Shown here: piece after piece, positions 29,857 to 64,000 of the stretch
How positions within the stretch are numbered: the first letter of the stretch is position 1
Layout of the letters: every line of letters starts with the position of its first letter
From: a virus
DNA length: 64,000 bases
IMG/VR virus record: IMGVR_UViG_3300045974_000167
Span: 19,560-83,559 of that record
Reading direction: 5' to 3' (one strand)
Made by a program: the position numbers and the translations under genes
Notes under the pieces: model-generated
Seen by the model: the letters and a program-made list of their open reading frames with translations, nothing else
What the model was told of the DNA's origin: nothing
Database searches by the model: none

Positions 29857-29884
29857 AATCTAACCACAAGATAACATTAGAGAA

Positions 29885-29918: not shown

Positions 29919-29949
29919 ATGTTTGGACTTGAAGCCAACGGTAAATACC

Positions 29950-30476: not shown

Positions 30477-30516
30477 ACGCTGGTCAATGGTTCACTCCTA
30501 GTTTTATAATCTGACC

Positions 30517-33257: not shown

Positions 33258-34003
33258 TGACCGTCAAGTTCAACTCCCCATTCACCCCCAAGGTGATGCC
33301 AAAGATTGAGGATCTTCCCGGTGCCAAACCGGTTGACCTCAAGAAGCATAAGCGTACTGCCTCAGGGGAACTGCGGCGCGAACCCGCTGCGACCTCGGAA
33401 CGTCAGAAGGCTAAGGTAGAGGTCGAGGTAGCTGTTGAACGTGCGATTAAGACTGGCGAAATCGTCGTGCGGGAGAAGGGTGCAATCGTTGACACGACTG
33501 ACCCTGAGCTTAGAGAACACTTTGGTCGTATGTTGTTCATGGGGGCTACCCAAGACCTCATCTGCGAAGTCCTAAAGATCCAGCGGGACACCTACCGCCG
33601 ACTCAAGCGGCTGCACCTTGAATCCGTCGTAGAATCCCTTGCCGAAACCGGCGTGATGGGGATGGTTGCCCTCTCCTTCGACAAGATGGAGATGGCGTCT
33701 ACCAAAACCCTGCAACTCATCAACTCCCTTGGGGTATCGGAGAAGGACCGCGCCGACCTCATTGGTGCTGTCCGACTCTTAAAGGATATCGAAAACGATA
33801 AGGTGTCGATGCTCGTCAAGACGGGGGCAATCAAGGTGAAGAAGCGGGCCGAAATCTCCGCGCACCTTGAAGTTCTCTCCGGTAGCTCTCAGCCGCTCCT
33901 AACCGGTGAAAAGGCGCAGCAGGTTATGGTCAGGGTAATGGCCGACCTCGTTGATGCTATCGAGGACGACGATGAATCTGACGGCGGCGAAGAGAGCGAT
34001 TAG
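33257..34003 (+). CDS. Putative terminase small subunit
   Basis: HTH-like GATQDLICEVLKIQRDT plus helical oligomerisation region; overlaps the TerL start. Confidence 0.55.
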   Translation: MTVKFNSPFTPKVMPKIEDLPGAKPVDLKKHKRTASGELRREPAATSERQKAKVEVEVAVERAIKTGEIVVREKGAIVDTTDPELREHFGRMLFMGATQDLICEVLKIQRDTYRRLKRLHLESVVESLAETGVMGMVALSFDKMEMASTKTLQLINSLGVSEKDRADLIGAVRLLKDIENDKVSMLVKTGAIKVKKRAEISAHLEVLSGSSQPLLTGEKAQQVMVRVMADLVDAIEDDDESDGGEESD

Positions 34004-35792: not shown

Positions 35793-36435
35793 TGGGAATA
35801 ATTGTTTAGGGCGAACTGTTCTAGTCATTGGGGCACATCCCGACGATTTGGAAATGAATGCCGGTGGGACAATCCATAAACTAATCCAATCTGGAGCAGT
35901 GGTATCCACTACAGTTTTAGCTAGCCATACCACCTTCAATGGTGATAGATTACTCGAATCAAACCGCGCCCAAATCAAATTGGGTATCGTCGGGATGGAG
36001 TTTGCTGGAGGGATTGACACTAAATTAGCTGATTCTAAGGCCATGTTAATTGATCTTCTTGATAGTAAGATAAAGATCATCAAACCGGATACAGTCATCA
36101 CCCATTTTCACGCTGATACGCATCAAGATCATGCCGCCTGCTACGATATCGTAATGGCGGCAGCGCGTTGTGTACCAAACATCCTGCTGTTCAAGCCGAC
36201 GTTTCCATCAGGCAGACCCGACATCCCGTTTCACCCTAACTTCATCAGCAAGCTCTCCGACGAGAATATGATCGCTAAGATTTCTGCCATGAGCGAGTTC
36301 GTATCTCAGCGTAATAAATACGGAGAGGATAAGTGGCTTGAATCCCTTAAGTCTACTGCGGCGGGCGATGCTTGGACGTATGGTGGCTTCCACGGGTATG
36401 CGGAAATCTTTCAAGTCTCACGTTTAATGGGGTAG
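35785..36435 (+). CDS. PIG-L/LmbE family de-N-acetylase
   Basis: VLVIGAHPDDLE..AGGTI, R..E, ITH..ADTHQDH. Confidence 0.9.
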   Translation: MNSGNNCLGRTVLVIGAHPDDLEMNAGGTIHKLIQSGAVVSTTVLASHTTFNGDRLLESNRAQIKLGIVGMEFAGGIDTKLADSKAMLIDLLDSKIKIIKPDTVITHFHADTHQDHAACYDIVMAAARCVPNILLFKPTFPSGRPDIPFHPNFISKLSDENMIAKISAMSEFVSQRNKYGEDKWLESLKSTAAGDAWTYGGFHGYAEIFQVSRLMG

Positions 36436-42517: not shown

Positions 42518-42599
42518 GGTGTCCTGGCGGAAATGGTAGACGCGCTAGCCTTAGGAGCTAGTGCCGAAAGGCGTGAGGGTTCGATTCCCTCGGACACTA
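42518..42599 (+). tRNA. tRNA-Leu (anticodon TAG)
   Basis: GGTGTCC/GGACACT acceptor; CTAGC-CTTAGGA-GCTAG anticodon arm; long variable arm; TTCGATT T-loop. Confidence 0.93.
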
Positions 42600-42605
42600 C
42601 TTCAC

Positions 42606-42687
42606 GGGACTGTGGCGAAACTGGTAGACGCATGGGACTTAAAATCCCCCGCCGAAAGGCATCCCGGTTCGATTCCGGGCAGTCCTA
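42606..42687 (+). tRNA. tRNA-Leu (anticodon TAA)
   Basis: GGGACTG/CAGTCCT acceptor; CTTAAAA loop; variable arm; TTCGATT. Confidence 0.92.
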
Positions 42688-42691
42688 TCTT

Positions 42692-42767
42692 GCCTCCATA
42701 GCTCAGTTGGTAGAGCAGCGGGCTTTTAACCCGTTGGTCGTAGGTTCAAATCCTACTGGGGGTACCA
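42692..42767 (+). tRNA. tRNA-Lys (anticodon TTT)
   Basis: GCCTCCA/TGGGGGT acceptor; CTTTTAA loop; TTCAAAT; encoded CCA. Confidence 0.95.
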
Positions 42768-42773
42768 TTTTTC

Positions 42774-42848
42774 AGTCCCTTAGCTCAGAGGTAGAGCGAG
42801 GCCCTTACAAGGCTTAGGTCGTCGGTTCGATCCCGACAGGGGCTACCA
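42774..42848 (+). tRNA. tRNA-Val (anticodon TAC)
   Basis: AGTCCCT/AGGGGCT acceptor; CTTACAA loop; TTCGATC; encoded CCA. Confidence 0.95.
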
Positions 42849-48519: not shown

Positions 48520-50435
48520 ATGGGACGCCACCGCAAACTGACGATGCGCGAACAGATCGAGGATCAGCGGCTCACCATCCACGATCTACAGGTCACCCGT
48601 GACCGGCTCTGGCACGCCATCCACGAGAACCTGAGTAACTACCCCAACAACGAGGGCTCGATTCGTTTGAGGGCGGTTATGAACGAGAATGCCTACTGTT
48701 CCTGCGGGCGCAGGGCTAGTTGCTGGGCGAACGGAACCGGACCCAAGATGTGTGAAACCTGTGCTTGTTCCTAGGGAGAACCATGGTTGCTACCTTTTCA
48801 GTCGAAGTCGAGTATGACCCCGCGCTTCTGAACATCCGCGAGGTGAAGGAAGTTCTCAACAAACTGATTGAGAATGCCACTCAGGACGGCGGCGACCTCA
48901 TGGATGGCATCGCCTCCATTAGTGGATTTACCCACGAAACCCCGAACAGGAAGGTCGGTGGTTAGGTGCCCTTTTACACCCTCAATATCGATGGAAAGAC
49001 CATCACCAGTTGGGAAACCCCCAAATACTCTTGTGGCGAGGTAAGTACAGAACCCAACCTCTGTCTAAGTTCTGGGTATATCTGCACCCGCAGGAAAGGT
49101 CACAGCGGTGATCATATCGCTCGCGGACCCAAGCGACAGCTAATTGAACGCTGGCCCCGACGCCCCATTTGAAACCATGTGCAATGCAGCATAACCTGCT
49201 ACATTTGCACCATGACGTTGCACCCACAACACGGAGGATTCACATGGAAACGAACGGACTTGGTGGACACGCTGCTGGACAGGAATACCACGCGCAGGAA
49301 CGCACGCTCCGCGTCTACTGGGACGATGATCGGCTGGACAAGATCACTCGCCTTCGCCTCCTGAGCGATCCCTGCTGTAGCTGGTGGGATGTCAAATACT
49401 GTCACGGCGTTCTCGCAGATGGTACGCTGGTGAATGTAACCCTTCCATTCTCACAGTTACGGAAGGGCGGCATCAACGCTCAGATCATCAAGTACGCCCG
49501 GGAGGACAAGGTGTTCGCCAAGGGCCTGGGTGTCTTCGACGCGATTTCCACTCTCTGCTAGAGGTTAGCCATGTTCAAGATTCTTGCTGCGGTGCTGGTT
49601 GCTTGTTCGTTGATCGGATGCGGCTCGGAAGTCGAGGAACCCGCCCCCCCTACTCCTGAGGTTGTAGTTGTCCGTGAGGTCTGCACAGTCTATCTCCTCC
49701 CTGACGGTGGCGTGGTTTGTAAGTGCGAACCCAAGCCCCTGGTGACTCCATGAAGGTAGAAATCTGCTGGACGGATTGGCGGGATGCCAACGAACCCTCG
49801 TATCTTGTGGAGTGCGAGGTGTCTCCGGGTGAACCTGCTTCTCGGGATTGCCCCGGGGCAGACCCCGAGGTCGAGATCCTAGCGGTGTGGGAGGATAGCC
49901 CTAGAAAGGTAGGGGAACCGCGAGTTAAGGTCTTCCGGAAGGACATCGAAGAGTACCTCGACGCCAACCCAGACGAGATTTACGACGACGCCGTGTGCGA
50001 AGCTGACGACAAAGACGCAGGACTGCGTTCTGCCGCTGACGACCTCAGAAGCGATGAGGCAAGGGGAAAGTAATGGCTCTGAAAATCAGCATCATGGAGG
50101 ATGAGGCGTTCCGCAAGGAATTGCAGAAGTTTTGCCAGGAACAGTTGCGGCCCATCGCCAGGGAGGAAATCGCCAAGATTCTCACTCCCGGCTATGCCAA
50201 GGAAGAACTGACGAAATACATCAAGGGCGAACTTACCAAGAAGGCTCTAGATGAACTTCGTTGGAACATCTACCACAACATCAAGAACACGGATGCGTTC
50301 CGAGAGGAGATGAAGAAACACATCACGGAATACATCAAGTACGAGCGTAGCGCCGCCGATATGACGCTGCAAGGCAAGCTCGATGAACGCATCAAGAATC
50401 TGATCCACATAACCCTGCGGGAGATGTTCAAGTGA
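48520..50435 (+). other. Run of small CDSs (48520-48774, 48783-48965, 48966-49172, 49244-49561, 49571-49753 lipoprotein, 49750-50073, 50073-50435)
   Basis: Coupled or RBS-preceded ORFs; 49571 has a signal peptide with an LIGC lipobox. Confidence 0.55.
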
Positions 50436-50867
50436 AGACCTACCAAGTGACCCTCGACATCAACACTAATGAAGTAGAGCCGCCGCAGAATTGGGATTGG
50501 GTAACCCTGCTCGATCTAGACGTAGCCAAGGGTGAGGGGGTAGACGTTGCAGATGTGCAACTGATTGCAGACGATAGTGACTGCCCAGGAGAAGGGACGA
50601 ACGAGTAACGACGCCCCAAATGTTCCGCACACGTTTGCAGGATGTTCTGACATCATGCATCAATGACGACGCGGAAACACCCCCTGGAGGCCAAAATGCC
50701 GGTGCCGACCGTTGAGGAAACGAAGTCTGGTACGAAGGTTGTTCCCTTCTTCTGCTGCCCCATGGTGACGCTCACGATGTTGAGCGGGCGACCCCTGGCG
50801 CACACGGATGCGTGCCCGAACAACCCCAAGAACAAGCGGTAACTCGCTGCACCCCATGGAGGGACAC

Positions 50868-52561
50868 ATGACGCTCGCAGAGAAAAAGGCGAAGATCCAG
50901 CACCTTCTCGCCACGAACAACACCGCAGTCGAGGTCGCTCTGACCCGGCTCCTTGCTCGTCAGACGAGTGATGAGCGGTACAGCCACACGACCGTCCACG
51001 CCAACAACCGTGGGTTCAGCGGGCGCGATGCCGAGTTCGGCACCTCTCTCGCGGAATGGATCAACAAGGGACACTCCCTTTCCTACCGCCAGATGATCTA
51101 CGGCCGCAAGATGGTGATGAAGTATTGGCGGCAACTGATCGAAGAGGCTGATGCCCGCACCCCCGGCTGGGCTGATCCCGTCGCCATGGACGACTTCGAC
51201 GGTGTGCAGGTCGAGCTTGACGCCGAGGCCGCGTTGGAGGCGCAGGCCGAACTCGCGTACATGAAGATGCACGGCAGCGACCCCTTCTAGGCTTTTGGGC
51301 GGCGTGCCCCTTGCCATCCCTGCGGGGTCTATGGCAAGGAGAAAGGAGGTGCGGTGAGTGTAGAACTACTGCTGCTAATAGTTCTAGCCATGACAATTGG
51401 ACGAGCCCTGAATTCAAAGCGGAAGTAACGACAACCCCTTTGATACATTCTCCGTTCAAGTCTGCTGTGCGATGATGCACCATCAACGACGTACCCACAC
51501 CCCATGGAGGGATTATGAGCAACCCCATCGAAGCGATCATCAACAAGATCCAAAGCGAAATCGAATACGCGAACGATGCAATCGATGAGGCAAGGCTCGA
51601 AGCACGGTTCGATCCCCTGATTCCCAAGGCGGAACGCGCCGACACCTGCAAGCGCGCCCGCATCGACGGCATCGAGGGAACGATCAAGCACTACGACCGG
51701 CTCAAGTCGATGAACCGGATGCGGCTGAATCAGGCAGCCAACCACTTCCTCAAGTCGGCCGGATTCAACTGGGACGCGACCGCCTCCAAGTCGCGGTCGT
51801 AACGCAAACGACCTGGGGTAAGTCGCTAAACTGCCCCTGCCTTTCCAACCCACACAGCGGAGGATTCACAATGACGATCACCATGAAGAACTGGCTCGTG
51901 ACGGCGCGTGATCTTGGCGAGGAGAATCCCTACCTCGCCCCGGAATGCCGCAAGTCGGCGGCGTGCCTGAGCGGGCAGATCACCCACCACCCGGAGTTGG
52001 TGATCACGAAGGACGAGAACCGAGTCACGACCTCCTCCATCGTCAATGTCGATGGACGCATCGTGACGACGTTCTCCGGGCGCAAGTACAAGCTGTACGG
52101 TCGTCCCGACCCCCGCTTCATGGAGTTCCTCGGCAGCAAGGAACTGCCCTATAACCCCCGCAACCCGCTGGCACCGCTGGTCGGTGCCGGTTTCATCGCC
52201 ATCGGAGGCTGACATGGGATTCACGACCATCGCAACGACCGCAGACGGTAGCCGCTACATCGTCAAGTACCACGACGGCGTTTCGTGTGTGGTGTGGGGC
52301 GAGATGTCCGGGTATCGCGGACTCAAGACCAAGCACCAGGGCACGATGTCCCTGCGTGTCGCAGATGTCACCCTCGCCACCATCGAGATGACGCCCATCA
52401 TCGTGGAGGAACTGCTCCAACAGTACCTCCGGTCGGAACAGAAGAAGGGCAAGTACATCGCGTGGCGTGGGCGTCGTTACTCCATCTATAACTCCGAAGC
52501 GGAGTTCCTGAAGTACATGGCGATGCGTGCTGCCACCCGCAACATCCAGGGTCGGTACTAG
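50868..52561 (+). other. Putative early genes (50868-51290, 51515-51802, 51871-52212, 52214-52561)
   Basis: GC3-rich ORFs, each with a strong RBS; promoters with -10 at 50651 and 51471. Confidence 0.6.
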
Positions 52562-52806
52562 TACGAGATTATGGGGAGCTGGCAGGAGAGAACTAGAAAG
52601 GCTAGTGCAACTGATTGCAGTGAGTAAGGGCGGCGGCAGTAAGGAAGGGTGAAAATGCAGCACAAACGACCCTTCTGATACGTTGTAACGCACAGAATGT
52701 TGTGCGACCATGCATCATCGGTTGACGCGGAAACTGCCGGGGGGTACGGATTGGCCGTAATCCAACGGTATTGACCGAGAGCTTGACCGACCAATGGAGT
52801 GACACA

Positions 52807-53406
52807 ATGACGACCGAGATCAAGAAGCCCCGCAAGTCGAAGAAGATCGCCGCCGAGAACGTCGCTGCCGCCGAGGTTGCCGCCCCGGTGGACGCTCTCA
52901 CCCCCGAGGTCACCACCGTCGAGGCAGTCGCCGCCGTCGAGGTCGCTCCCGCCGCAGAGCCGACCCCGATGCCCGACCCCTGGAAGCTGTTCGATGAGGT
53001 GCCGTACGGGGGCGCGGACAAGAAGATCCCGGTCCTGGCGACGGCGATCAACGACGAGAACCGCGAGTACGTGCTCCGCGAGCTGATGAACGCGGTCCTG
53101 GCCGTCACCGGCCCCCGCGACGGGATGTCCTCCTCGCTGGACCGCCGCGCCTTCCACGCCGGAGTGCGGACGTACATCCCCGAGGGGCACTACAAGCGGG
53201 CGCCCCTCCAGGCCGTGAAGCCGCTCGACGAGGAAATCTACGTCGCCCGCGTCGGCAGCCGCATCCTCGACACCATCAACGAGAAGAAGCTCCCGCTGTC
53301 CGGGGGCCTCAACTCCCACGAGAACGCGCAGGTCCGCATCGGCGCTCTCTACGAGGCGCTCGTTTCGGTCGCCGCGTCGAAGGGCCTGATCTTCGCCGCC
53401 CAGTAA
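52807..53406 (+). CDS. Putative early protein: basic N-terminus, Ala/Glu/Pro linker, globular C-domain
   Basis: Own promoter (TTGTAA-17-GACCAT, 52683) and terminator; very high GC3. Confidence 0.7.
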   Translation: MTTEIKKPRKSKKIAAENVAAAEVAAPVDALTPEVTTVEAVAAVEVAPAAEPTPMPDPWKLFDEVPYGGADKKIPVLATAINDENREYVLRELMNAVLAVTGPRDGMSSSLDRRAFHAGVRTYIPEGHYKRAPLQAVKPLDEEIYVARVGSRILDTINEKKLPLSGGLNSHENAQVRIGALYEALVSVAASKGLIFAAQ

Positions 53407-53428
53407 CACCTGAGTACGAGACTCCCGC

Positions 53429-53467
53429 GCTCCCGCACCCATACAACGGTGCGGGGGCGTTCTTTTT
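53429..53467 (+). terminator. Intrinsic terminator
   Basis: GCTCCCGCACC...GGTGCGGGGGC followed by GTTCTTTTT. Confidence 0.7.
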
Positions 53468-53803
53468 GGCTAGTTAGCAGGTGAGATAGACTAGAAATTC
53501 CCGGCCCGCGTCACCCCGTTAAGCTAGTAGACCATTATTGATACGAGGCTCGTACAAGCACGCAAAAACCCTACCCGCTACCCCCCCACCACCCCGACCC
53601 GCCAAAGGTCACCATGAGGCTCCTGCGCGTTCTAATAGGAATCCTAATTGCCCCCTCTGACCTCACTTCCGACCTAGAGCGTTTCTGCAATCGTGTGCAA
53701 AGTATAGGGGGCAGTACGCACGCCCCAAATGTTCCCACCCACCCCACAGAATGCCCTGCTACGGTTGACCATCAACGCCGTATTCAACCAATGGAGTGAC
53801 CCA

Positions 53804-55920
53804 ATGGCGAACAAGATGAATCACCGGCACGGCGGCGGCAGGCGGAACGAGGGAAAGTCGGAAGTCGATCTTCGCTTCCTCCTTCGTCCCGAGCCCCTGG
53901 CACTCGATCAGATCACCGAGGGTCTGGACGACGCCTTCATCGATTCCGAGATGTTCGACACCGGATGCTGCGCGGAGTGCGAGGACATGGCCCGCCGCTA
54001 CTCCACCGACAACAACGAGGGATGAAATGAACGAGCACGAGACTCCAGCACATGCACCACACACGGACGGACAGCTAGTGAGGTGCCCCAAGTGCAAGGG
54101 TCTGAGCACCGTGCAGGGTACGCACATCAGAACGTACTGCTGTTGCAGCAAGTCGCCGCCAGAGGGCAGTCTCATGGTACCCTACAACCGAACCCCCATC
54201 CGGAGGAAGTAAATGCACGGACGAGAGATGTGCGAACGCCACGAACCCGACATGAGGAAGTGTCGGTTCTGCACGGATTTCACCAAGGAACCGTGCTACA
54301 AGCCCAAGCTCATTGATCCTCCAAAGGACAAGACCAATGGACGACCCTAAGTACATCTACATCGACACCCATGAGGCAGGCCCAGACTTCTTCATCTTCC
54401 CTAACTGGTACGACCACAAGCGGGTGGCTGAGTTTGTGGGCGGGGAAGTGCTGAGTGCTGGATTCGTGTGTTTCAACGTGCCCAAGCCATTCTGTCATGG
54501 GAAGTCTACTTCTCTGAACGTCGGAGCTACCGAGTTCGCCACGAAATACTTGAGGAAGAGGTACGGGATCAACGAGGACTAACACCCCAAAATCCTGCAC
54601 ACGATTGCAGAACGGCGTGTTACCTTGACCATACGGCAATGACGCCGTGGGAAACGGAGAGACAATGGCACGGTACTTCATCGACCACAAGACGGGGCTG
54701 ATCACGGAGATCACCCTGGACGACATCGCCCCCGCCGGTCCCTGGCAACTCGCGGCCTGCGAAATGCGGGAAGTCCAGGCCCTCAGGAACGACGAGTTCT
54801 GCCTGACCGACCAGGGTGTGCTCCTCCGTGACGACGCGGGACAGATCATCGACGGGCTCCACATCGTCCTCAACCGCTACGGGGTTGGGACGACCTACGG
54901 ATACCCCGAAGAGAACCTCATCGAGTTCTTCAACTAGTACGAGATTCCAGCGCATTACGCGCATACGACCCACTAGCTAGGGAGGCAACAGTGCTGAGAA
55001 TCGACTTCGCAGAGCGTTGTGCATGGCGAGCCATGTACCTCTCGTACACCAAACACGACAAGTCCGGATACAAGTGGCAGCACCAGTTCTTCCACATCGG
55101 ATTCGACCCCAACCAGAATAGCGGGAGGCCGCAGATTTTCGGCGGCGCGTGGGGGCTGGCCTGGAGATTCAATATCCCCCACATCCGTTGGAACATGAAG
55201 ATGAACAGCATCACACGCTTCCTCTACCGCTGGCAAAGCAACATCCTGTTCCGCCTCGACGGACGCTTCAAGTGCTGGCCTGGGCAGACCCCCCGCCCCT
55301 AAATCCCGCAAACGATTGCAAGACGGTCTTAGACCGCCCTGTTACTGTGACTGTGCCGCAACCACGCGGCACCAACGGAGGCACAGACATGAGCAACTAC
55401 TGCGTCGAAACCTACCACGCCAGGCTGTCCGACTCGGTGATCACGGACATGGACGGAGACACGGCAGAGGAACTGAACGACGAAACGCTCGCCTACGCGA
55501 ACGAGCTGTTTGAGGCAGCCAAGGCGAACTGCCCGCCCGACGAATACTGCGAGGTTTGGGTTGCCCGCTTCCGGCCCAACCTGCCCGCCCAGCCTGTCTA
55601 CATCTTCACCTCCCTGGTGCATTAGACCGGGGATCGACGCCCCAAACGTCTGCACACGATTGCAGACCGCCGTGTTACGGTGACTCTGCCGCACTTGCGG
55701 CCACCAACGCTGGAGACACGCAATGGACACCATCACGCTGACCCGGCACGAAGCTGACCATGTGGTTGCGGCCCTCGCCACCCTGCACGCCATCTTGGGG
55801 AAGAACTACGAAACCGGCCACCCCAACGCCGAAGAGGACAGGAAGTGGGTGGCGGGCATCCTCCAGAACTTCAACGAGAAACTCGGAAACACCACCGTTT
55901 CCTGGCTGAACATCGAGTAA
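53804..55920 (+). other. Small putative early CDSs (53804-54025, 54027-54212, 54337-54582, 54666-54937, 54991-55302, 55389-55625, 55723-55920)
   Basis: Repeated promoter-RBS-ORF cassettes (-10 at 53760, 54621, 55343, 55676). Confidence 0.55.
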
Positions 55921-55963
55921 CAGACCGAACACCGAACGACGCGCCAACCAATGGAGTGACCCC

Positions 55964-56203
55964 ATGGCCTACGACGCCCAGAAAGATGTCCTCGTTCACG
56001 CCTTCCCCAAGTTCCAGACCGCCGACGGACACATCGAGATCGGAGTCTACAAGTACAACGGCGCGGCCCCCAAGATCAGGATGCACGCCGTCACGGTGTC
56101 CAAGTCCACGGGCAAAGAGTACAGGAACTCCATCGGCAACATGACCCGAGCCCAGTTCGAGTTGTTCGTCGGACTGTCCCCCGAGATCCTCAACAAGCTG
56201 TAG
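55964..56203 (+). CDS. PC4/YdbC-like ssDNA-binding protein
   Basis: IEIGVYKYNGAAPKIRM...G.MTRAQF pattern resembles the PC4/YdbC family. Confidence 0.5.
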   Translation: MAYDAQKDVLVHAFPKFQTADGHIEIGVYKYNGAAPKIRMHAVTVSKSTGKEYRNSIGNMTRAQFELFVGLSPEILNKL

Positions 56204-56249
56204 AAAAAGAACCCCAAATCGGCGGCGCGTCTGCTGCTGCGAGGTAGAC

Positions 56250-56510
56250 ATGAGATTCCATATCAATCCCTCCTACGCCCCAGGTCGTAGACTCTGGCTA
56301 GAGGTCACCCAAGACAGATTCTTCACCGAGGATGAGTACCGCCTCTTCTGGATGCTCAACAAACTGTCCATCTGGCACGGACAGGACAAGCACGGCGCGA
56401 ACTACAAATCGTGGGAATTTGCTCCAGATATGGAGCCTGCCGTGCGGCGCGTCCTCGAATACCTGAGATACGAGGAAGGAGACTTTGAACTGATCCCTCA
56501 GACCTACTAG
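56250..56510 (+). CDS. Hypothetical protein
   Basis: GAGGT RBS; followed by a terminator-like hairpin at 56532-56563. Confidence 0.55.
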   Translation: MRFHINPSYAPGRRLWLEVTQDRFFTEDEYRLFWMLNKLSIWHGQDKHGANYKSWEFAPDMEPAVRRVLEYLRYEEGDFELIPQTY

Positions 56511-57201
56511 ATCGAGATTCACACCCGCCCGCCCCCCTATGCTTGCACAGATAGGGGGCTTTTCACGTTAGTATCTAGCAAAAATCGGCGGCGGCGTCTG
56601 GTCCCCTTAGTATAGAAGATATAGAGGACAATAGGAGGGCTAATAGGGATACTAAAACTAGGGAAGCAATAGGTGGAATAGACCTGTAATCTCGATCACT
56701 TAGGTCTACCCTTTAGACAGTCCAGAATCTCCATAAATCCACCCAATCTAGCTAAAAAGCTGCCTCTTGCTCACTCAAAATCCTAAAAAGTCGAGACAAG
56801 ATTGGGTCGGGCACGAGACTATGGCGAGCTAGCGAGCACAGACAGAAAGATAGATCGAGACTCTAGCAAGCAGGCTGGAATAGATAGATAGACGAGCAAG
56901 TGGGAGGGCAGCAAGGCAAGAAAGGTAAGAAAGGCAAGACTGGGCTTGGCTCTCCCTCCCTATAGGAGATTGCGCTCTGAAAAGTTGAGAAAGTGTAGTT
57001 AGCGTTCAGACCCCTTGTTTTTAGTAGTGTAGAAAACACGATTTAGTAGCAAGACTGCTCCAACCATGCGCCGCCGATTCTCTACTCGTGCAGAAAGACG
57101 AGAGTGGTTGGAATGAACTACCCAAATGTTCTGCAATCAATTGCAGAACGCCCTGCTATGCTCCTTCCATGACGTACCACCCAAACGACGGAGACACTTC
57201 A

Positions 57202-57508
57202 ATGCGGACCTACTTCATGGTGTACGACGCAAGCGGCAACATGGTCATCGCCTGCTCCGACTGTGTGGAGCGGCACCTGCCGAGCGCGATGTGCGTCGAG
57301 ACACTGTTCACCCTGGACGACATCGACCACATCCACCAGACGAACCGCCCGATGTTCTCCAAGCCCGCCCGCCGCAGCGAGAGCAACTAACATGACCGGC
57401 ATGGACGACGCCATCTTCTTCTCCATCTGGTTCACAGCCGGAATCACGATGATGGGACTTATCTCCGGAGGATTCCGAGTCATCACCCGCCGCACCTTCT
57501 GGAGATGA
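57202..57508 (+). other. Two small CDSs (57202-57390; 57392-57508, single TM)
   Basis: Promoter (-10 TATGCT at 57157) and GGAG RBS; hairpin plus T-run at 57547-57566. Confidence 0.5.
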
Positions 57509-57579
57509 CATGATCCACAAGTACGGCTGTTAAGCAAAATGCCCTCGCCCACCGTGGCGGGCTTTTCTGCAACTGATTG

Positions 57580-57851
57580 CAGACAGCACGAGACTCTAGG
57601 TGGCTGGGAGGAAAGAAAGATAGGAAGGCTGGTACCCAGTACGAGACTATGGCTAGCTGGGTAGGAGTAGCAAGAAAGATAGAAGGAGCAGCAAAGCAAG
57701 ACAAGAAAGGAAAGCAAGAAAGAAGTAGAAAGACTGGAAAGACGAGAAAGAAAGACAGCAGGAGAAAGACGAGAGTGAGATCGAGACTATGGCTGGGTAG
57801 GTAGGTGAGCATAGCGAGGTAAGGCAGGCTGGGCGAGCGAGGCTGGACAAG
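57580..57851 (+). repeat. AG-saturated purine tract with CGAGACT(A/C)T repeats
   Basis: For example AGAAGTAGAAAGACTGGAAAGACGAGAAAGAAAGACAGCAGGAGAAAGACGAGAGTGAGA; ends abruptly at 57851. Confidence 0.8.
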
Positions 57852-58343
57852 ACCGTTTTTTCAAAATCGACCGACCTGCTCTGTCTACTTTGCGTCGGCA
57901 CGCCTTTTTCCCGTGCCAAAACGAACGCCCCTTTCCGTGTCGTGTGCGTTCGGTACGTGTCCCGTGTCTTTTGCCCCACCCAACATGACCCATCTGTTTT
58001 CATGCACTTACCTCGTTTCTTGCGTGTACCATGCGTCTTTTGCCCCAACCATGCCCCACCCCCCCGCGCCCCTTGACGTTCCAACATGTTGAAATCACTG
58101 CAAACGATTGCGCCCGTGTTTCGGCACGGTCGCTGCAATGACTCCGGAATGTCGTTGTTGAATCTTCGGTCCCGCCGCTGAAAATCGGACCTGCGAACGA
58201 CCGACCCGGCCCCCGGCAATCGACCCGAAACCCGAAAAAACGTTCTCGGAACGTGCCTTTGCGGTGTTTCGGCATACCCCAACGGATCGACCGTTGAACC
58301 TTGAACGGCGACCGAAACCCGTTGTATCCATACGGAAAATCAA

Positions 58344-59150
58344 ATGAAAATCTCGAAATCGGAACGTCGCGCCCGCCTCGTTGCCTCGAACGCCGCTCTG
58401 CATGCTGCGGCGGTCGCTGCGGTCGTTGCGGACCCCGAATCTCCCGAAACCGAATCCATCCTCATGATGAACGCCGGCGCCGATGTTCCGCCGGTCACGC
58501 CTGCGGATGTCGCTGCGGCGTCCGCTGATGCCCCGCCATGCGACGCACCGGTCGCGGTCGATGCTCCGGCCCCGGACGCCCCTGCGGACGCCCCTGCGGT
58601 ACCGGTGCGCTCCGACGTTCGATACTCCGCGCCTCGACTGTCGATGCCGGTCGGAACCCTGATTCCGGTCGGTGCGAATCACACCGGTACCCGCGGCATC
58701 TCCCGGCGGTACCTGTACGCGATTCCCGGCGGTGACTTCCTCGCGACCGGTGATTCCCGCCTCCCCTCGTCCCTCGAATCCATCGACCTTGCCCTGTCGA
58801 TGATCGACGACGCTGCGACGCTGATCGAACGCACCGATTCGACCACGTTCGCACCGACGGTCGATGCCTGCGGCTTGCGGTACGGTGCGTCACCGCGCCA
58901 TGCAACGACACACGCCGCGATGCGACTTGATGCGCATGACTTCGCGGTCTCGTTCACGGCCCGCGTGATCGATTCGGTCCCGCCCGGACTGCGGCCCGCC
59001 TCGTGCCATTCGGTCCTGTCGCGCCTCCCCGGCGCACGGTCGAACCACGCCGATGCGTCGGCCCGCCTCTCCTTCGTTCGTACCATCGCGGTGAACGTTC
59101 GGACGCTTCTCGCTGCTGACGCTGCGGCCGTGACCGCTCCGACGGTCTAA
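58344..59150 (+). CDS. Hypothetical protein encoded entirely without AG; candidate first-expressed factor
   Basis: 268 aa with no Trp or Gln and only two Lys (AAA); basic N-terminus, Ala/Pro/Asp linker, globular C-domain; strong terminator directly after the stop. Confidence 0.72.
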   Translation: MKISKSERRARLVASNAALHAAAVAAVVADPESPETESILMMNAGADVPPVTPADVAAASADAPPCDAPVAVDAPAPDAPADAPAVPVRSDVRYSAPRLSMPVGTLIPVGANHTGTRGISRRYLYAIPGGDFLATGDSRLPSSLESIDLALSMIDDAATLIERTDSTTFAPTVDACGLRYGASPRHATTHAAMRLDAHDFAVSFTARVIDSVPPGLRPASCHSVLSRLPGARSNHADASARLSFVRTIAVNVRTLLAADAAAVTAPTV

Positions 59151-59158
59151 CGTGACTT

Positions 59159-59214
59159 GACCGACGGTTGTGCATGCCTTCCATGACATGCGCAACCGTC
59201 GGTCTTATTTTTTT
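59159..59214 (+). terminator. Strong intrinsic terminator
   Basis: GACCGACGGTTGTGCATG / CATGCGCAACCGTCGGTC 18-bp stem followed by TTATTTTTTT. Confidence 0.85.
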
Positions 59215-59398
59215 CGCCCGTTGGGATGTGCTCACATGAGGGGGGATATTTTGGTGTGATTTGACAAACGGGAATCTGACTTCCCACGCAAGCGGTTGCG
59301 GGAGGGGAAATGTTTAGGGTGAGGGGAACAGGGTGGGGGGTCGTTGGGGGACAGGAGGAAAAATTTTAGGGGCTCCTTTTCGACTTAGATGAAATGAA

Positions 59399-59427
59399 TT
59401 GACAAATGTAGGGTGCTTCGGTAATGT
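59399..59427 (+). promoter_or_regulatory. sigma70-type promoter (fixed-AG spacer class)
   Basis: TTGACA-aatgtAGggtgcttcgg-TAATGT. Confidence 0.75.
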
Positions 59428-59472
59428 TGTTTCCTGATTTCGGCGGTGCAATCCCAATCATGGAGGCTCCTA

Positions 59473-60080
59473 ATGTCTGACCCTGTTGACAGGATGTGCG
59501 AGTGTGGGCACCTTGAATCCCGGCATGGCTACACCTCGTCTGGGCAGTTTACTTGTAACGACCCCCTGTGTATGTGCAGGGTGAACTTCAAGCCTGTAGA
59601 GGTTGCTCACGTTGCTCTATCCGGCTCGATTGTGGGCAAGGGTTCGATGAAGTAATCCTGTTGTAAGAAGCCTCAATGGAGTGAGGATGGACCGTTCGGC
59701 TATCAATGGGGAATTCGCTCGACATAGAGTCGTGGCGGGTTCCCCTTTTACTACTGACTTCGCGTTGGAAGAAATCTACAGGGCGTGGGTGGAGCTTTCT
59801 AAACCTACTGACTGTTGGATTGGGTATGACCTAGACAACGAACACAAACGGATAATCTCCGTTGTGAGGAAAGAGGCTGAGGATGAAGGAGAAGGAGTCG
59901 GCCTACGAAGCGTTGATGGTGGCGAAGCATTATGTGGGTAAGGGGTGCGGGGATAACTCTTGCCTACTCGTTAGACCTACTGGAATGGCTACGAATGGCG
60001 GGTGCCGGTGTGCGAACCGGCCTGCGGTGTTCTCCGCGCTGTGCAGGCTATTCCGCGCAAGCATGGAGGAGAATTCGTGA
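59473..60080 (+). other. Three small CDSs (59473-59655, 59681-59941, 59883-60080)
   Basis: RBS-preceded ORFs; Cys motifs (CECGH; GMATNGGCRC). Confidence 0.5.
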
Positions 60081-60700
60081 AAGTCGTCGTCGGGGTTCCT
60101 GCGGGGGATAGAGTCCACACAGAGTTTGTGGTGTGCCTGGGGGATATGCTGCTCTATACGGCTAAGGCATTACCTGACCTGGAATTAGAGCTTCGGATGC
60201 AGATGAGTTCGCTCGTCGCGTTTAATCGTAATGAGCTTGCGAAATATGCTCTAGAGCAGAAGGCCGACTACCTCCTGTTTATTGATTCGGATATGGAGTT
60301 TCCTCCGTATGCGCTGAATCGGATTTTGGATGAAGCCTTAGGCGGGGAGTATGAAATCCTTGGGTACAACTACACGCAGCGGGGGCCACCGTTCCAGGGA
60401 TTAGCTCTTGATCTTGCTGGAAAGCAGGTGGAACACGGCAAGTGGGTGATTGAAGTTTCTAGGTTGCCTACCGGATTTATGTTGATTAATCTGGGTGTTT
60501 TTGCCAAATTGAAATCACCGTATTTCCACCATCCGATTGAGGACGGACATATCGTTTCAGAGGATTATGCGTTCTGCGACGATGCACGAAAGGCTGGAAT
60601 CAGACTTTGGATGGACGCGGATATGTCTAGGGAGATTAGGCATATCGGAACTGCATATACACGGTGGGTTTCGGGGTTAGGGTGCCAGAATGAGTTTTGA
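60077..60700 (+). CDS. GT-A fold (GT2-like) glycosyltransferase 1
   Basis: RNELA..AL...ADYLLFIDSDM.FP, PTGFMLI..VF, SEDYAFC..AR..G..LW.D...HIG. Confidence 0.82.
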   Translation: MKVVVGVPAGDRVHTEFVVCLGDMLLYTAKALPDLELELRMQMSSLVAFNRNELAKYALEQKADYLLFIDSDMEFPPYALNRILDEALGGEYEILGYNYTQRGPPFQGLALDLAGKQVEHGKWVIEVSRLPTGFMLINLGVFAKLKSPYFHHPIEDGHIVSEDYAFCDDARKAGIRLWMDADMSREIRHIGTAYTRWVSGLGCQNEF

Positions 60701-61313
60701 TATTGTTCAGGTGGTTGTGCCTACGCGGGGGAATCCACGAGCTGAAGTAGTTTCCTCTATTGAGAGGGTTTGTCGGCGTAGCCTTGCTCCCAAATACTTG
60801 ATTGGGAATGCGGGTGCAGCGGAAACGAAGGCCCGTGCGGTTAAGTGGTTCATGGAGGAATGCGTTGCGGATAGATTAATCATCGTGGACGACGACATTA
60901 TCGTGCCGCCCAATTTCTTGGATTTAGCGTGCAGGGATGCCGATATAGTCGCAGCGATTTGTCCGGTATGGGTGGTGGGGACTAAGCAGGTGCCGTTCTA
61001 CAATGCCTACCGTGCGGTGCAGGGTGGATACGCGCACGCGGAGATTAATCTAAAGGGAATGCAGGAGGTAGATGCTGTTGGAGGAGGCGCTCTTTGTCTG
61101 ACTCGGAAAGTCCTTGCCGACCTAAAGCCTGTGTTCACGGATAAGTACGACGAGTGGGGAGTGCTTGCTCTGGGGGAAGATTTCCACTTTTGCCAAAGGG
61201 CTAAGGCTAAGGGCTATAAGGTGTGGGCGGATTTCAGTATCCGATGCGAACACATCAAGACCGTACTTCTAGAGGACTACGCCATCCGCGTGATTAAGGG
61301 GTTGCAGCCATGA
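60690..61313 (+). CDS. GT-A fold glycosyltransferase 2
   Basis: IIVDDDI, EVDAVGGGALC, GEDFHFCQRAKAKGYKVWADFSIRCEH. Confidence 0.8.
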   Translation: MSFDIVQVVVPTRGNPRAEVVSSIERVCRRSLAPKYLIGNAGAAETKARAVKWFMEECVADRLIIVDDDIIVPPNFLDLACRDADIVAAICPVWVVGTKQVPFYNAYRAVQGGYAHAEINLKGMQEVDAVGGGALCLTRKVLADLKPVFTDKYDEWGVLALGEDFHFCQRAKAKGYKVWADFSIRCEHIKTVLLEDYAIRVIKGLQP

Positions 61314-61921
61314 CGGTACAAGTAGTCATTCCTACGAGGGGAAATCCCCGCGTAGAGACTGTTGCCTCTATTGAAAATATTTGCAGGGGCAAGACCCCCC
61401 CGCACTACGTAGGGGGCTCGATGGGTGCAGCAGAGACAAAGAGTCGGATTGTTCAATGGTTTCTGCTAAAGACGAATGCCTCGCACTTAATCATCTTAGA
61501 TGATGACGTTATTCCTCCAACGAATTTCTTGAGTCTCGCAGAACGGGGAGTTGAGATAGTAGCAGGAGCAGTACCACTATTCGGTGCTCACTCCGCAAGG
61601 GTTCCGTTCGATGCTGTTTATAGGAGAAATGCCGCTGGAACCTATATTCCCGTAGAAGCCGGATTAACTGGAATGCATGAAGTAGACGCAGTAGGAGGAG
61701 CTTCTATCTGTATTGCTCGCCACGTTCTGGTAGATGTGCGGCCCGCCTTTACCGATGTGTACGACGAAGACGGAAGGGCGGTTATCAGTGAGGACTTCCA
61801 TTTCTGTCAGCTAGCCAAGGCGAAGGGATATAAAATCTGGGCCGACTTCGATGTCCGGTGTGAACACGTTAAGCAAATGCCGTTGTCGGACATGGCGATG
61901 CGCGTGCGAGCGAACCCGTGA
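61310..61921 (+). CDS. GT-A fold glycosyltransferase 3 (paralogue of 60690)
   Basis: VVIPTRGNPR.E, ILDDDV, EVDAVGGA, SEDFHFCQLAKAKGYKIWADFDVRCEH. Confidence 0.8.
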   Translation: MTVQVVIPTRGNPRVETVASIENICRGKTPPHYVGGSMGAAETKSRIVQWFLLKTNASHLIILDDDVIPPTNFLSLAERGVEIVAGAVPLFGAHSARVPFDAVYRRNAAGTYIPVEAGLTGMHEVDAVGGASICIARHVLVDVRPAFTDVYDEDGRAVISEDFHFCQLAKAKGYKIWADFDVRCEHVKQMPLSDMAMRVRANP

Positions 61922-62259
61922 GTGATTGCTCTATTCCTTGTACCGGTCGATGTTGTGAGATGTTGGCACTACCGTTTCTCATGGAGGAATACAAACAATC
62001 TTATGAGAACTGGCTGGCGGGTCGGCCCCACCTAAAAGATATCTGGATTATCTACCCGATGCTGAAACCGCCACCAGAGAAACTCTATAAAGAACTTCTC
62101 GATACAGTCGGAGGCGATCCATATAAGCTTGTCTCCTTCCACTACGGATGCAAGCACTTAACAGAGGATAAGAAGTGTAGCATCTACGATGCTAGACCTC
62201 AGATGTGCAGGACGTTCCCAGATGATCATCCTTGCCAGTTTTGCGGAGTAACAGCATGA
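61918..62259 (+). CDS. YkgJ-family Fe-S/Zn Cys-cluster protein
   Basis: CTGRCC...CKHL....CSIYDARPQMCRTFP. Confidence 0.8.
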   Translation: MSDCSIPCTGRCCEMLALPFLMEEYKQSYENWLAGRPHLKDIWIIYPMLKPPPEKLYKELLDTVGGDPYKLVSFHYGCKHLTEDKKCSIYDARPQMCRTFPDDHPCQFCGVTA

Positions 62260-62353
62260 AGAAGGCTCTGATTTACGCGGCGTGGTTTCTGGCGGGATTC
62301 TTCATCGGGCCTATCCTTGCCTATTTCGGAATTATGAGTCTCTGGAGGCCGTA

Positions 62354-63084
62354 ATGACATTAGGAAAAAATCTTGGAACGGTCGGCGGGCACAACTGGTA
62401 CCGTCTACCGTCCAAGTTCGTAGAACGGTTGTGGTGTACCCGCTGCGGGTGTCTTGCCGAGGGCGACTTGCTCTGGGCAATGAATCTGAAGTTAACCCGC
62501 TGGGATTGGCAGTTCACACTACCCGGGAATCCTGTAAAGGTGATTAAGAGTTCCGAGGATGTTCCTAAATGCCCCAACGGTGTTGGGTACAACCAGACCA
62601 CGCTCATGCGGGAGCAGGGACTACAGAAACTAGAGCGTCAGGCCAAGGGAGAAATCGAATGATTGAAAAGAACACCATCAATTTCTGCGGAAGGCCCTTG
62701 CTCGATTGGGAACCCGGCGACGAACAGTTCAAGAAGATTTTGAAGATTACGTATGATAAGGGCTGCGAACATTACATCGCCAAGCCCAGCGATACTATTA
62801 TCTTCCTAATGCGGAAGGTGAAGGAACTTGGCAATCAATTGCACGACGTAGAGGCTACCCCTATGTCGGAGTGGGCGGCTACTCTCGCGGCTGCGAAGGA
62901 GAACGTGGAGGGAACGGCGGCTTTGTTACATGAGGCCGAGAAGCGTATTGCGAAACTGGAGGCGATGATTCCGCAGTATGCACCGGAACCTCCAACGCAT
63001 TGCCATTGTCCCCGTAGCGTTCCTCTAACGCAAGATCAGAAACGATGCTCTTGGTGTTGGTTACCTCGTAAGGAAAAGACCTAA
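62354..63084 (+). other. Two hypothetical CDSs (~62354-62662, 62659-63084)
   Basis: GGAGG RBS and ATGA coupling. Confidence 0.5.
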
Positions 63085-64000
63085 TGCGCGAGTGTGTGGA
63101 GTGTGGGCATATTACGTGTTCTCACCTAGCTGAGTTTGAACAGCTACAGGCCAATGCGTTAGAGGGCCTGCGTGATCGCGTTAAGCAGGCAGAGCAGGAT
63201 GCGCGTGCGGCGGGGTATAGGGCGCATGATTTCCCTGCCGTGGCTGCGGAACGTGACGTTCTCCGCGCCCGCGTGGCTGAGGTCGAGCGGGACTTGGCAA
63301 GCGAAGTGCGGCAGCACGGGGAAACGGCTGCGAGCTATTTCGATGCCCGCGCCGAGTCCGAGAGGCTGCGGGCGGCGCTGCGGGCGGTCCTCGACACGCA
63401 CGATGCCTGGGACGCCGCCGAGGTTGAGAGGTTCTCGCAGGAGAGCCTGTCGCGCCGGATGGTCCGGTGCGAAGCGTTCTACGGGGCGAAGAAGGAGGCC
63501 CGCGCCGCGCTGGCCGAGGCCGAGGCGGGGAGGCTGCGGGCGCAGGTCGATTCCTGGGAAGCTGGCTGGCACAAGAAGCACGGGGAGGTCGTTCGGTTGA
63601 CGGAGGTGCTGCGGGACGTTTTCGACTCCGGCTACATCCCGCACGACTACGCAACCTGTGACGAGAACAGGTCCGTCAACGCGGATCGAGCGTGCCTCGC
63701 GTGCAGGACCCGCGCCGCCCTCGCCGCCGATCCGGTAGCGGAGGGCGGGGACGCGCCGTGGAGGTGCCCCATCTGCGAGAACGGCACGCTAATTGCGCCG
63801 TGGAACTGCGTGTGCAACGGGATTGCCCCCACCGCTCCGGTGCCAAGCGCCCCTGACCCCGAGGACGTTCCTGTCACTCGCCCCTGGAAGGATGCCAGCC
63901 CAGACTTCCAGTCAGGTTATCGGGCCGGGTGGGCTGACCGGGAGGCGGACATCTTGTGCGGCATCGACAGGGTAGCGCCCCCGGTGCCGAGCGGGCCGCG
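63084..64000 (+). CDS. Hypothetical coiled-coil/Cys-rich protein, 3'-truncated by the window edge (absent from the ORF track)
   Basis: TAATG coupling; frame MRECVECGH...VAAERDVLRARVAEVER... appears open to the end; GC rises markedly after ~63200. Confidence 0.6.
   Translation, partial: MRECVECGHITCSHLAEFEQLQANALEGLRDRVKQAEQDARAAGYRAHDFPAVAAERDVLRARVAEVERDLASEVRQHGETAASYFDARAESERLRAALRAVLDTHDAWDAAEVERFSQESLSRRMVRCEAFYGAKKEARAALAEAEAGRLRAQVDSWEAGWHKKHGEVVRLTEVLRDVFDSGYIPHDYATCDENRSVNADRACLACRTRAALAADPVAEGGDAPWRCPICENGTLIAPWNCVCNGIAPTAPVPSAPDPEDVPVTRPWKDASPDFQSGYRAGWADREADILCGIDRVAPPVPSGP

What the first reader, a model, noticed from the sequence alone, without database searches (positions are those of the whole stretch)
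57852..59238. A 1.39-kb transcription unit with no AG (and no TGG/GGG) on the coding strand
Seen: the last AG is at 57850-51 and the next is at 59239-40. Between them the + strand has no AG, although GA is abundant, and every GG up to 59221 is CGG. Several tens of AG would be expected from base composition (rough estimate). The minus strand is not constrained, since CT and CCC are common on +. The island covers ~490 nt of upstream DNA, the 58344-59150 gene and its terminator, and ends ~25 nt after the T-run. The cost is visible: the protein has no Trp or Gln and only AAA Lys, Glu is encoded as GAA despite high GC3, and the RBS is CGGAAAA rather than the GGAG used elsewhere. Inference: virion DNA carries a bulky context-specific modification, either at G in RG-but-not-CGG or at C in CT/CCH on the template strand. 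This one gene must be transcribed by unassisted host RNAP before the modification can be read through or removed, so its product would be the factor that unlocks the rest of the genome. Alternative: the transcript or exposed strand avoids an AG/DGG-specific nuclease.
Basis: partly seen in the sequence, partly recalled or inferred. Interest (0 to 1): 0.97.

Follow-up and report, generated by a model that had tools for sequence, protein, structure and literature searches.

The report
One-strand AG-free phage gene unit
An uncultured pond phage keeps one complete gene unit (long leader, orphan gene, terminator) entirely free of the letter pair AG and of GG unless preceded by C, on the sense strand only. 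Its distant relatives appear to do the same, so something unidentified in the infected cell must read these tiny words and this gene must escape it.

Summary
On the + strand, 57851-59222 (1372 nt) holds no AG and no AGG/GGG/TGG, while 61 of 63 GG are CGG. By local composition 57 AG are expected. The next longest such interval in the 83.5-kb genome is 58 nt on + and 95 nt on -.

The interval covers a 492-nt non-coding leader, a 268-aa orphan ORF and its intrinsic terminator, and ends 8 nt after the T-run. The other strand is not purged.

It is selection, not mutation bias. Other genes of the phage prefer AAG and CAG and use Trp and GGG freely. All five known homologues, down to 39% identity, lack Trp and every residue pair that would force AG or TGG.

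New here: the same grammar (no AG, no DGG, CGG allowed, GA normal) rules the stretch between 23 conserved promoters and their GGAG ribosome sites. The island is therefore a whole gene written in this phage's leader dialect, with no Shine-Dalgarno.

Best reading (about 0.4): a stealth message invisible to a factor that reads purine-G words on untranslated RNA.

The scan has noted similar dinucleotide-purged islands in other phage genomes.

The parts
57851..59222 (+). Interval with no AG and no AGG/GGG/TGG on the + strand (AG-free proper: 57852-59238)
   Evidence: 0 AG against 57-85 expected; 61 of 63 GG are CGG; 24 times longer than any other such interval on +.
57852..58343 (+). 492-nt non-coding, C-rich, G-poor leader-like segment obeying the same ban
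   Evidence: No convincing ORF. No Rfam match. Fold z-score -1.27. No standard promoter, best PWM score 0.9 against at least 15.5 for real ones.
58344..59150 (+). Orphan ORF of 268 aa (P0001): basic N-terminal helix, Ala/Pro/Asp linker, conserved C-terminal domain
   Evidence: Five-member family P0001-4 and P0008. No Pfam, PHROG, PDB, atlas or Foldseek match. Codon table.
58314..58373 (+). A-rich, weakly structured start region without a Shine-Dalgarno
   Evidence: MFE -5.5 kcal/mol, against an island mean of -16.3 and a window mean of -13.6; sequence.
59159..59214 (+). Intrinsic terminator: 18-nt arms 59159-76 and 59187-204, then a T-run to 59214
   Evidence: (I5).
57577..57851 (+). Purine-rich non-coding block directly upstream (75% purine; AG at 19% of positions) with three copies of CGAGACT[AC]T[AG]G at 57589, 57642 and 57782
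56790..56950 (+). Sister purine-rich block with two copies of the same motif (56814, 56856)
59239..59372 (+). G-run block directly downstream (GG 35 in 137 nt; many runs of 3-6 G)
59399..59461 (+). Next standard promoter and AG/DGG-free leader, serving the following gene block that includes the glycosyltransferases

Best explanation
The unit is a self-contained gene whose whole sense strand, and hence its whole message (leader, coding part and 3' end), is written in the dialect this phage otherwise uses only between a promoter and the ribosome-binding site. In that dialect G never follows A, and GG occurs only as CGG. In ordinary genes the first AG after the promoter is the GGAG ribosome site itself. 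Here there is none, and translation must start at an unstructured A-rich ATG without a Shine-Dalgarno. I infer that a factor in the infected cell reads purine-G words on RNA that ribosomes do not cover. It could be a nuclease or an RNA-modifying enzyme with dinucleotide-level specificity, from the host or the phage. Every single occurrence of such a word would then be costly for this message. The result is a stealth mRNA that stays intact and translatable while messages carrying these words are cut, marked or shut off. Shown: the ban, its strand, its limits, its cost, its conservation in homologues (indirectly), and the shared dialect with leaders. Inferred: that the level is RNA, that a reader exists, and what the protein does.
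For: 1. Absolute, one-strand ban co-extensive with leader, ORF and terminator, ending 8 nt after the T-run.
2. It runs against the phage's own codon preference, so it is not mutation bias.
3. Conservation: all five homologues, down to 39% identity, have no Trp and zero K/E/Q/M-to-V/A/D/E/G pairs, which would force AG or TGG. For the first four, 5-8 pairs each are expected and P is 5e-5 to 1.6e-3. P0008 was checked by eye. Among 61 other ORFs of this genome the observed/expected ratio has a median of 0.99, and only the island ORF is at zero.
4. Same grammar in 23 promoter-to-SD stretches: AG 0 against 36 expected, GA 30 against 36, and 24 of 32 GG are CGG. The first AG lies inside GGAG in 20 of 23. 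On the + strand, AG and GG are depleted around the promoters (AG nearly absent from about -30 to +40 of the invariant AG), while CT and GA stay near normal over most of that stretch. In many cases where an upstream ORF could be called, the zone begins at or near its stop codon.
6. The start region is unstructured and has no SD.
7. [quoted passage not shown] Engineered ACA-less messages stay translated under MazF (PMC5408214).
Against: - No enzyme with AG/DGG specificity on RNA is known, and none was found in the contig. There is no RegB, and the early ORFs tested had no significant family hit apart from one weak sub-threshold ArdA match.
- No transcription start site or promoter could be assigned to the island. 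If transcription starts in the AG-rich block, the message would carry many AG at its 5' end.
- The AG-free zone at ordinary promoters also covers untranscribed spacer DNA. That fits RNA only if read-through transcripts matter.
- The one 3' untranslated stretch inspected by eye, after the unit-1 ORF at 57508-57577, does contain AG.
- A purge of the 492-nt leader as strict as that of the coding part is less expected for an RNA hazard than for something that blocks RNA polymerase.
- The DNA of the homologues could not be read.
Confidence: 0.4

Rival explanations
1. DNA-level reading. Phage DNA is modified, or DNA in the infected cell is nicked or adducted, at AG/DGG on one strand (equivalently CT/CCH on the other). 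This unit is kept free of sites so that it stays ordinary, readable DNA, for example for host RNA polymerase straight after injection.
For: The only known enzymes with AG-dinucleotide specificity act on DNA: Nt.CviQII nicks R^AG, M.CviQII methylates AG, and Nt.CviPII nicks ^CCD (PMC3017599 and PMC3299994). The phage carries an MT-A70 methyltransferase, a second SAM methyltransferase, a GT-B plus PIG-L plus WbqC cluster and three tandem GT2 genes beside the island. The leader is purged as strictly as the coding part, as expected if any site between start and stop blocks the polymerase. The AG-free zone at promoters includes untranscribed DNA.
Against: The purge is on the non-template strand in AG terms. 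A template-strand mark at CT/CCH would also block all other genes, yet their promoter-proximal 45 nt are purged and their coding regions are not, which has no purpose in this model. No region is purged on both strands. There is no DpdA. Adenine methylation cannot explain the GGG/TGG ban. The contig is 87% complete and its termini are unknown, so 'first injected' cannot be tested.
Confidence: 0.25
2. Ribosome exclusion or Rho loading. The unit is meant to be a long naked, C-rich RNA. All Shine-Dalgarno-like words are removed so that 30S subunits cannot bind, which makes expression depend on Rho or on a special initiation mode.
For: The forbidden words AG, AGG, GGG and TGG are all parts of the phage's own ribosome-site consensus ATGGAGGG, and CGG is not. 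The RNA is C-rich and G-poor (C 36%, G 26%). Pyrimidine-rich sense strands are Rho targets (PMC13323073).
Against: Isolated AG is not Shine-Dalgarno-like but is still absent (0 against 57 expected). GGTGA-type anti-SD complements remain (seen in the sequence). Such weak effects should not give an absolute ban that costs Trp and Gln and is kept across 39%-identical homologues.
Confidence: 0.1
3. Priming-free zone. Bacterial DnaG-type primases start primers as pppAG or pppGG on template CTG, CTA or CCC (from my own knowledge, not checked here). The - strand of the island offers no CTN or CCH, so no primer of + polarity can start inside it, while the flanking blocks offer many sites.
For: The forbidden set on the - strand (CTN, CCH) includes the three known primase trinucleotides. 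The flanks are dense in such sites.
Against: There is no reason for a priming gap to end at a transcription terminator or to recur at 23 promoter-leader stretches. A 1.4-kb gap is within normal Okazaki spacing. The specificity of the phage's own primase is unknown.
Confidence: 0.05
4. No function: chance, hypermutation (for example strand-specific deamination turning AG and GG into AA and GA), or foreign origin of the segment.
For: AA and GA are enriched in the island. Its GC content (62%) differs from the genome's (54%).
Against: The expected number of such gaps is 9e-34. GC is higher, not lower, than in the genome. The ORF is intact and conserved. Homologues keep the rule. There is no genome-wide pressure against AG.
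Confidence: 0.02

Closest known systems
Engineered ACA-less messages in MazF-expressing cells (single-protein production; reviewed in PMC5408214)
   Same: A message wholly devoid of a nuclease's short target word keeps being translated while other messages are cleaved.
   Different: That case is engineered, uses a trinucleotide and has a known nuclease. This one is natural, uses a dinucleotide plus DGG, includes a 492-nt leader and the terminator, and has no known reader.
[quoted passage not shown]
   Same: An enzyme reads a purine-purine dinucleotide on naked mRNA and blocks translation. It shows that readers of this size exist on RNA.
   Different: The target there is GA, which is enriched in the island (87 against 57 expected). 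The island is therefore not an escape from CmdT itself. No phage escape by dinucleotide purging turned up in my searches or in the passages of that paper that I read.
Chlorovirus Nt.CviQII (R^AG) with M.CviQII (AG), and Nt.CviPII (^CCD) (PMC3017599, PMC3299994)
   Same: Virus-encoded enzymes that read AG, or CC plus one base, on one DNA strand. This is the nearest match in specificity.
   Different: They act on double-stranded DNA, and genome protection comes from methylation, not from site loss. Here YAG is banned as well as RAG, and the third-base rule is CCH rather than CCD. No nickase was identified.
Restriction-site and short-motif avoidance in phage genomes (reviewed in PMC12707154, abstract only seen)
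   Same: Selection removes the target words of a sequence-specific hazard.
   Different: Classical avoidance concerns 4-8 bp words, both strands and whole genomes. This case is 2-3 nt, one strand and one transcription unit.
T4 RegB endoribonuclease cutting GGAG in early ribosome sites (from my own knowledge)
   Same: A reader that attacks the Shine-Dalgarno word on RNA. In this phage the first AG after 20 of 23 promoters is a GGAG.
   Different: RegB needs the tetranucleotide. There is no RegB homologue in the contig. A ban on every AG goes far beyond GGAG.
Other dinucleotide-purged islands noted by this scan in other phage genomes (e1-5919324, e1-5933008 and six more)
   Same: Self-contained phage gene units, many of them read as early genes, lacking one or a few dinucleotides, kept in relatives where those were examined. 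One is one-strand CT-free (the same word on the other strand) and lies next to a CT-rich stretch.
   Different: These are AI notes that I did not check. The words differ, and several are purged on both strands.

Membership tests
Nuclease/modifier-target-free message (ACA-less type) | Target word absent from the entire transcript | tested here: met
   0 AG and 0 DGG from 57851 to 8 nt past the terminator T-run
Nuclease/modifier-target-free message (ACA-less type) | A cognate enzyme with that specificity in host or phage | tested here: inconclusive
   None found. No RegB, and the early ORFs tested had no significant family hit. The host is unknown and the contig is 87% complete.
Nuclease/modifier-target-free message (ACA-less type) | Message stays intact and translated while others are inactivated | not testable with these tools
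   No RNA run holds the stretch
CmdT (GA-specific) escape | Loss of GA dinucleotides | tested here: not met
   GA 87 observed against 57 expected
RegB-type Shine-Dalgarno cleavage escape | RegB homologue present in the phage | tested here: not met
   PF10715 gave no match at E <= 1
Classical restriction-site avoidance | Avoidance on both strands | tested here: not met
   CT 77 and CC 169 on +. No sub-region is purged on both strands.
Classical restriction-site avoidance | Genome-wide under-representation | tested here: not met
   AG observed/expected is about 0.91 over the window. NAG codons are preferred elsewhere.
DpdA-type 7-deazaguanine DNA modification at short motifs | TGT/DpdA transglycosylase gene | tested here: not met
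   PF01702 is absent from the contig, while the controls were positive. The contig is incomplete.
AG-specific DNA methylation/nicking (CviQII type) | Adenine methyltransferase with AG specificity | tested here: inconclusive
   An MT-A70 gene lies at 27596-28198. Its specificity is unknown.
AG-specific DNA methylation/nicking (CviQII type) | Modified or nicked AG in virion DNA | not testable with these tools
   Only assembled contigs are available
T5-type first-step-transfer (pre-early) segment | Lies at the leading end of the packaged genome | not testable with these tools
   The contig is linear, 87% complete, and its 3' end (window 64000) falls inside an ORF. Contigs run across 57851.
Moron-like autonomous unit | Own terminator, deviating composition, own promoter | tested here: inconclusive
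   Terminator present. GC is 62% against 54%. No promoter could be assigned.

The most novel reading that the evidence does not exclude
Phages and their hosts fight with enzymes that read single dinucleotide steps on RNA or on an exposed DNA strand. Together with the other purged islands noted by this scan, it would mark a whole class of still unknown dinucleotide-reading systems, each revealed by the word its counter-gene avoids.
Probability: 0.35. Interest if true: 0.9.

Novelty: new variant of a known kind. Interest (0 to 1): 0.85.

Why it matters
The sequence alone predicts the specificity of an unknown reader (AG, and GG unless preceded by C, on one strand). It also names the gene that must escape it. 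That turns an invisible host-phage interaction into an experiment: recode the gene with synonymous AG, or use AG-containing and AG-free RNA or DNA as bait and substrate in infected-cell extracts. If it acts on DNA, it would be a new context-specific modification or nicking system with a built-in exempt gene. The same logic can be applied to the other purged islands seen in the scan.

Tried and rejected
Homologue DNA:
- Two metagenome scans, two genome scans and two viral scans with the family found no locus.
- The conservation test therefore had to be indirect, through forced residue pairs.

Close relatives of the phage:
- None in the phage collection or in IMG/VR.
- Distant loci L001-L022 and Stenotrophomonas phage DLP5 have no comparable island.

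Function of the protein:
- Pfam, PHROGs, PDB sequence search, ESM atlas and a Foldseek search of the model all gave nothing. The AlphaFold model had pLDDT 61.
- No longer fused forms exist.
- A proposed kinship with the ORF at 52771-53406 was not supported: BLASTP E 1.2, hhalign probability 0.2%.

Expression and RNA structure:
- No RNA holder was listed among the sequencing runs.
- No Rfam family matched in 50000-64000.
- The leader fold is not significant, z -1.27.

Promoter:
- No sigma-70 consensus or standard phage promoter lies in or at the edge of the island.

Candidate readers:
- DarT1 as a G-specific reader was rejected, because no consensus motif was found for it (PMC11543638).
- There is no DpdA, no T7-type RNA polymerase and no RegB in the contig. 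The RNA polymerase search had no positive control.

Literature:
- Searches found no description of natural dinucleotide-purged phage genes.

Full report
**Observation**

I read 57700-59400 and recounted. On the + strand the last AG is at 57850-51 and the next at 59239-40. The 1389-nt gap compares with a second longest AG gap of 149 nt in the whole 83,559-bp genome. Local base composition predicts 57 AG, and the window-wide rate predicts 85. The expected number of such gaps in the genome is 9e-34.

Of 63 GG, 61 are CGG. The single TGG and GGG lie at 59222-25. Counting AG and DGG together, the free interval is 57851-59222, or 1372 nt. No other such interval exceeds 58 nt on + or 95 nt on -.

GA (87 against 57 expected), AA and CG are enriched. 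The other strand is ordinary: on + there are 77 CT and 169 CC, and no sub-region is purged on both strands.

A second pond metagenome from a different study holds an identical 936-nt contig, 58282-59217, so the sequence is real.

**Anatomy**

The genome is an IMG/VR virus record, linear and estimated 87% complete. Nearly all genes lie on +. The large terminase is about 50% identical to those of Stenotrophomonas phage DLP5, Rhodobacter phage RcZahn and Vibrio VHS1-like siphophages. No close relative exists in the phage or IMG/VR collections.

The island has three parts:
- A 492-nt C-rich segment without a convincing ORF, Rfam match or significant fold.
- A 268-aa ORF at 58344-59150.
- A strong intrinsic terminator: arms at 59159-76 and 59187-204, with a T-run to 59214.

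The second metagenome's contig also ends there, at 59217.

Directly upstream lies a 275-nt purine-rich non-coding block in which AG occupies 19% of positions. It holds three copies of CGAGACT[AC]T[AG]G. A sister block with two copies lies at 56790-56950. Directly downstream lies a block of G-runs (59239-59372), followed by the next standard promoter.

**Selection, not mutation**

Other genes of the phage prefer AAG (215 to 81 AAA) and CAG (89 to 49 CAA). They use AGY and AGR codons, and they have 1.3% Trp and 31% GGG among Gly codons. The island ORF uses only AAA and GAA and has no Gln and no Trp. Every Gly codon follows a C. Its GC content (62%) is above the genome's, which rules out G-to-A hypermutation.

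**Conservation**

The protein has four homologues: P0002 (84% identical), P0003 (56%), and P0004 and P0008 (about 39-40%). All come from short metagenome contigs.

I therefore used a proxy. Under the ban, Trp is impossible. Lys, Glu, Gln and Met cannot be followed by Val, Ala, Asp, Glu or Gly, since AAA|G, GAA|G and CAA|G create AG and ATG|G creates TGG.

All five proteins lack Trp and have zero such pairs. For the first four, 5-8 pairs each are expected and shuffle P runs from 5e-5 to 1.6e-3. P0008 was checked by eye. As a control, 61 other + strand ORFs of this genome have a median observed/expected ratio of 0.99, and only the island ORF is at zero. The rule has therefore been kept while the protein diverged to 39% identity.

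**The protein**

There is no Pfam, PHROG, PDB, atlas or Foldseek match. The AlphaFold model has pLDDT 61. No fused forms exist.

The conserved positions include His113, Cys176, His186, Asp196, Asp199 and six Arg. This hints at an enzyme or a nucleic-acid binder, nothing more.

The region from -30 to +30 around the ATG is A-rich, has no Shine-Dalgarno and is weakly structured: -5.5 kcal/mol against -16.3 for the island and -13.6 for the window. This fits Shine-Dalgarno-independent initiation.

**The leader dialect**

A weight matrix separates them cleanly, with scores of at least 15.5 against a next best of 12.

- After the invariant AG, the + strand stays free of AG and DGG for 43-53 nt.
- The first AG downstream of the -10 element lies inside a GGAG ribosome site in 20 of 23 cases.
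- In these stretches AG is 0 against 36 expected from their own composition. GA is 30 against 36, and 24 of 32 GG are CGG.
- The positional profile shows AG nearly absent from about -30 to +40 around the invariant AG, with GG also depleted up to about +30. CT and GA stay near normal over most of that stretch, apart from a CT dip near the ribosome site.
- In many cases where an upstream ORF could be called, the zone starts at or near its stop codon.

The island therefore obeys the same grammar as the phage's untranslated promoter-leader stretches, extended 25-fold and across a coding region. It lacks the one AG-bearing element those stretches lead to. It contains none of the standard promoters (best score 0.9).

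**Weighing mechanisms**

A reader at dinucleotide level is required. Isolated AG in contexts that do not resemble a ribosome site is absent too, both in the island and in the leaders.

For a reader acting on the sense RNA or on the exposed sense strand:
- The ban is on one strand only.
- Its limit coincides with the terminator.
- In ordinary genes the ban holds in untranslated stretches and ends at the ribosome site.

A transcription-blocking mark on the template strand would not explain why only the first 45 nt of ordinary genes are clean.

Readers of this size are known. CmdT ADP-ribosylates GA in single-stranded mRNA, and engineered ACA-less messages survive MazF. However, GA is enriched here, and no AG-specific RNA enzyme is known.

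For a DNA-level reading:
- The only known AG readers are chlorovirus DNA enzymes.
- The phage has an MT-A70 methyltransferase and many sugar-transfer genes.
- The leader is purged as strictly as the coding part.
- The promoter zones include untranscribed DNA.

I put the RNA or sense-strand stealth reading at about 0.4, DNA modification or nicking at 0.25, ribosome exclusion or Rho loading at 0.1, priming exclusion at 0.05 and no function at 0.02. The rest is unknown.

**Relation to what is known**

This is not classical restriction avoidance, which concerns both strands, longer words and whole genomes. It is not CmdT escape, not RegB escape and not DpdA-type modification. It works like a target-free message.

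My literature searches found no description of natural dinucleotide-purged phage genes. This scan has noted comparable islands in other phage genomes, including a one-strand CT-free island next to a CT-rich stretch. I did not check those notes.

**Verdict**

This is a real, extreme, selected and conserved feature whose reader and function are unknown. It is directly testable by recoding and by using AG-free and AG-rich nucleic acids as probes.

Noticed in passing
window 9077-59430 (23 sites; for example 10356, 47991, 59399): A family of 23 promoters, TTGACA-N5-tAG-N10-TAnnnT, with an invariant AG in the spacer. Each is followed by 43-53 nt without AG or DGG up to a GGAG ribosome site, and many share an upstream ACGCCCCAAA element that begins at or overlaps the preceding stop codon.
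   Followed up: yes
window 35595, 42404, 56814, 56856, 57589, 57642, 57782: Seven copies of CGAGACT[AC]T[AG]G, all on +. They resemble the core of SP6/T7-type promoters (GACACTATAG, from memory). One lies 113 nt upstream of the tRNA cluster. No single-subunit RNA polymerase is in the contig, which is 87% complete.
   Followed up: partly
window 59239-59372: A block of about ten G-runs of 3-6 G on the + strand, between the island's terminator and the next promoter. It is a possible G-quadruplex or insulator element, and it is partly complementary to the C-rich stretch at 58036-58061.
   Followed up: no
window 57130-57148 and 57565-57583: Two copies of the TGCA-N6-TGCA palindrome bracket the small unit between the two purine-rich blocks. 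One overlaps the promoter and the other follows the terminator at 57544-57570.
   Followed up: no
window 26874-36435; L024 14232-23322: A SAM methyltransferase, MT-A70, WbqC-like protein, HNH, GT-B, ParB-N, TerL and PIG-L (BshB-like) deacetylase lie in one string. Stenotrophomonas phage DLP5 has the same PIG-L, BshA-like GT, ParB and TerL arrangement plus sugar epimerases and an aminotransferase. This is a conserved sugar pathway of unknown target wrapped around the packaging genes.
   Followed up: partly
window 60002-62259: Three tandem GT2-like paralogues, followed by a CxxCxxCC (YkgJ-type) metal-binding protein, lie just downstream of the island.
   Followed up: partly
window 42518-42848: A cluster of four tRNA genes: Leu-UAG, Leu-UAA, Lys-UUU and Val-UAC.
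   Followed up: no
window 58282-59217: In the second pond metagenome, the identical contig starts 62 nt before the ATG and ends 3 nt after the terminator T-run. The ORF plus terminator may therefore travel as a module among differing flanks.
   Followed up: no
window 50073-50435: A weak, sub-threshold ArdA-like (antirestriction) match in an early ORF (E 0.003).
   Followed up: no
L023 33452-34046 (Stenotrophomonas phage DLP5): A 594-nt stretch without TT inside a hypothetical gene (expected number of such gaps 8e-6). It is much weaker than the island here.
   Followed up: no
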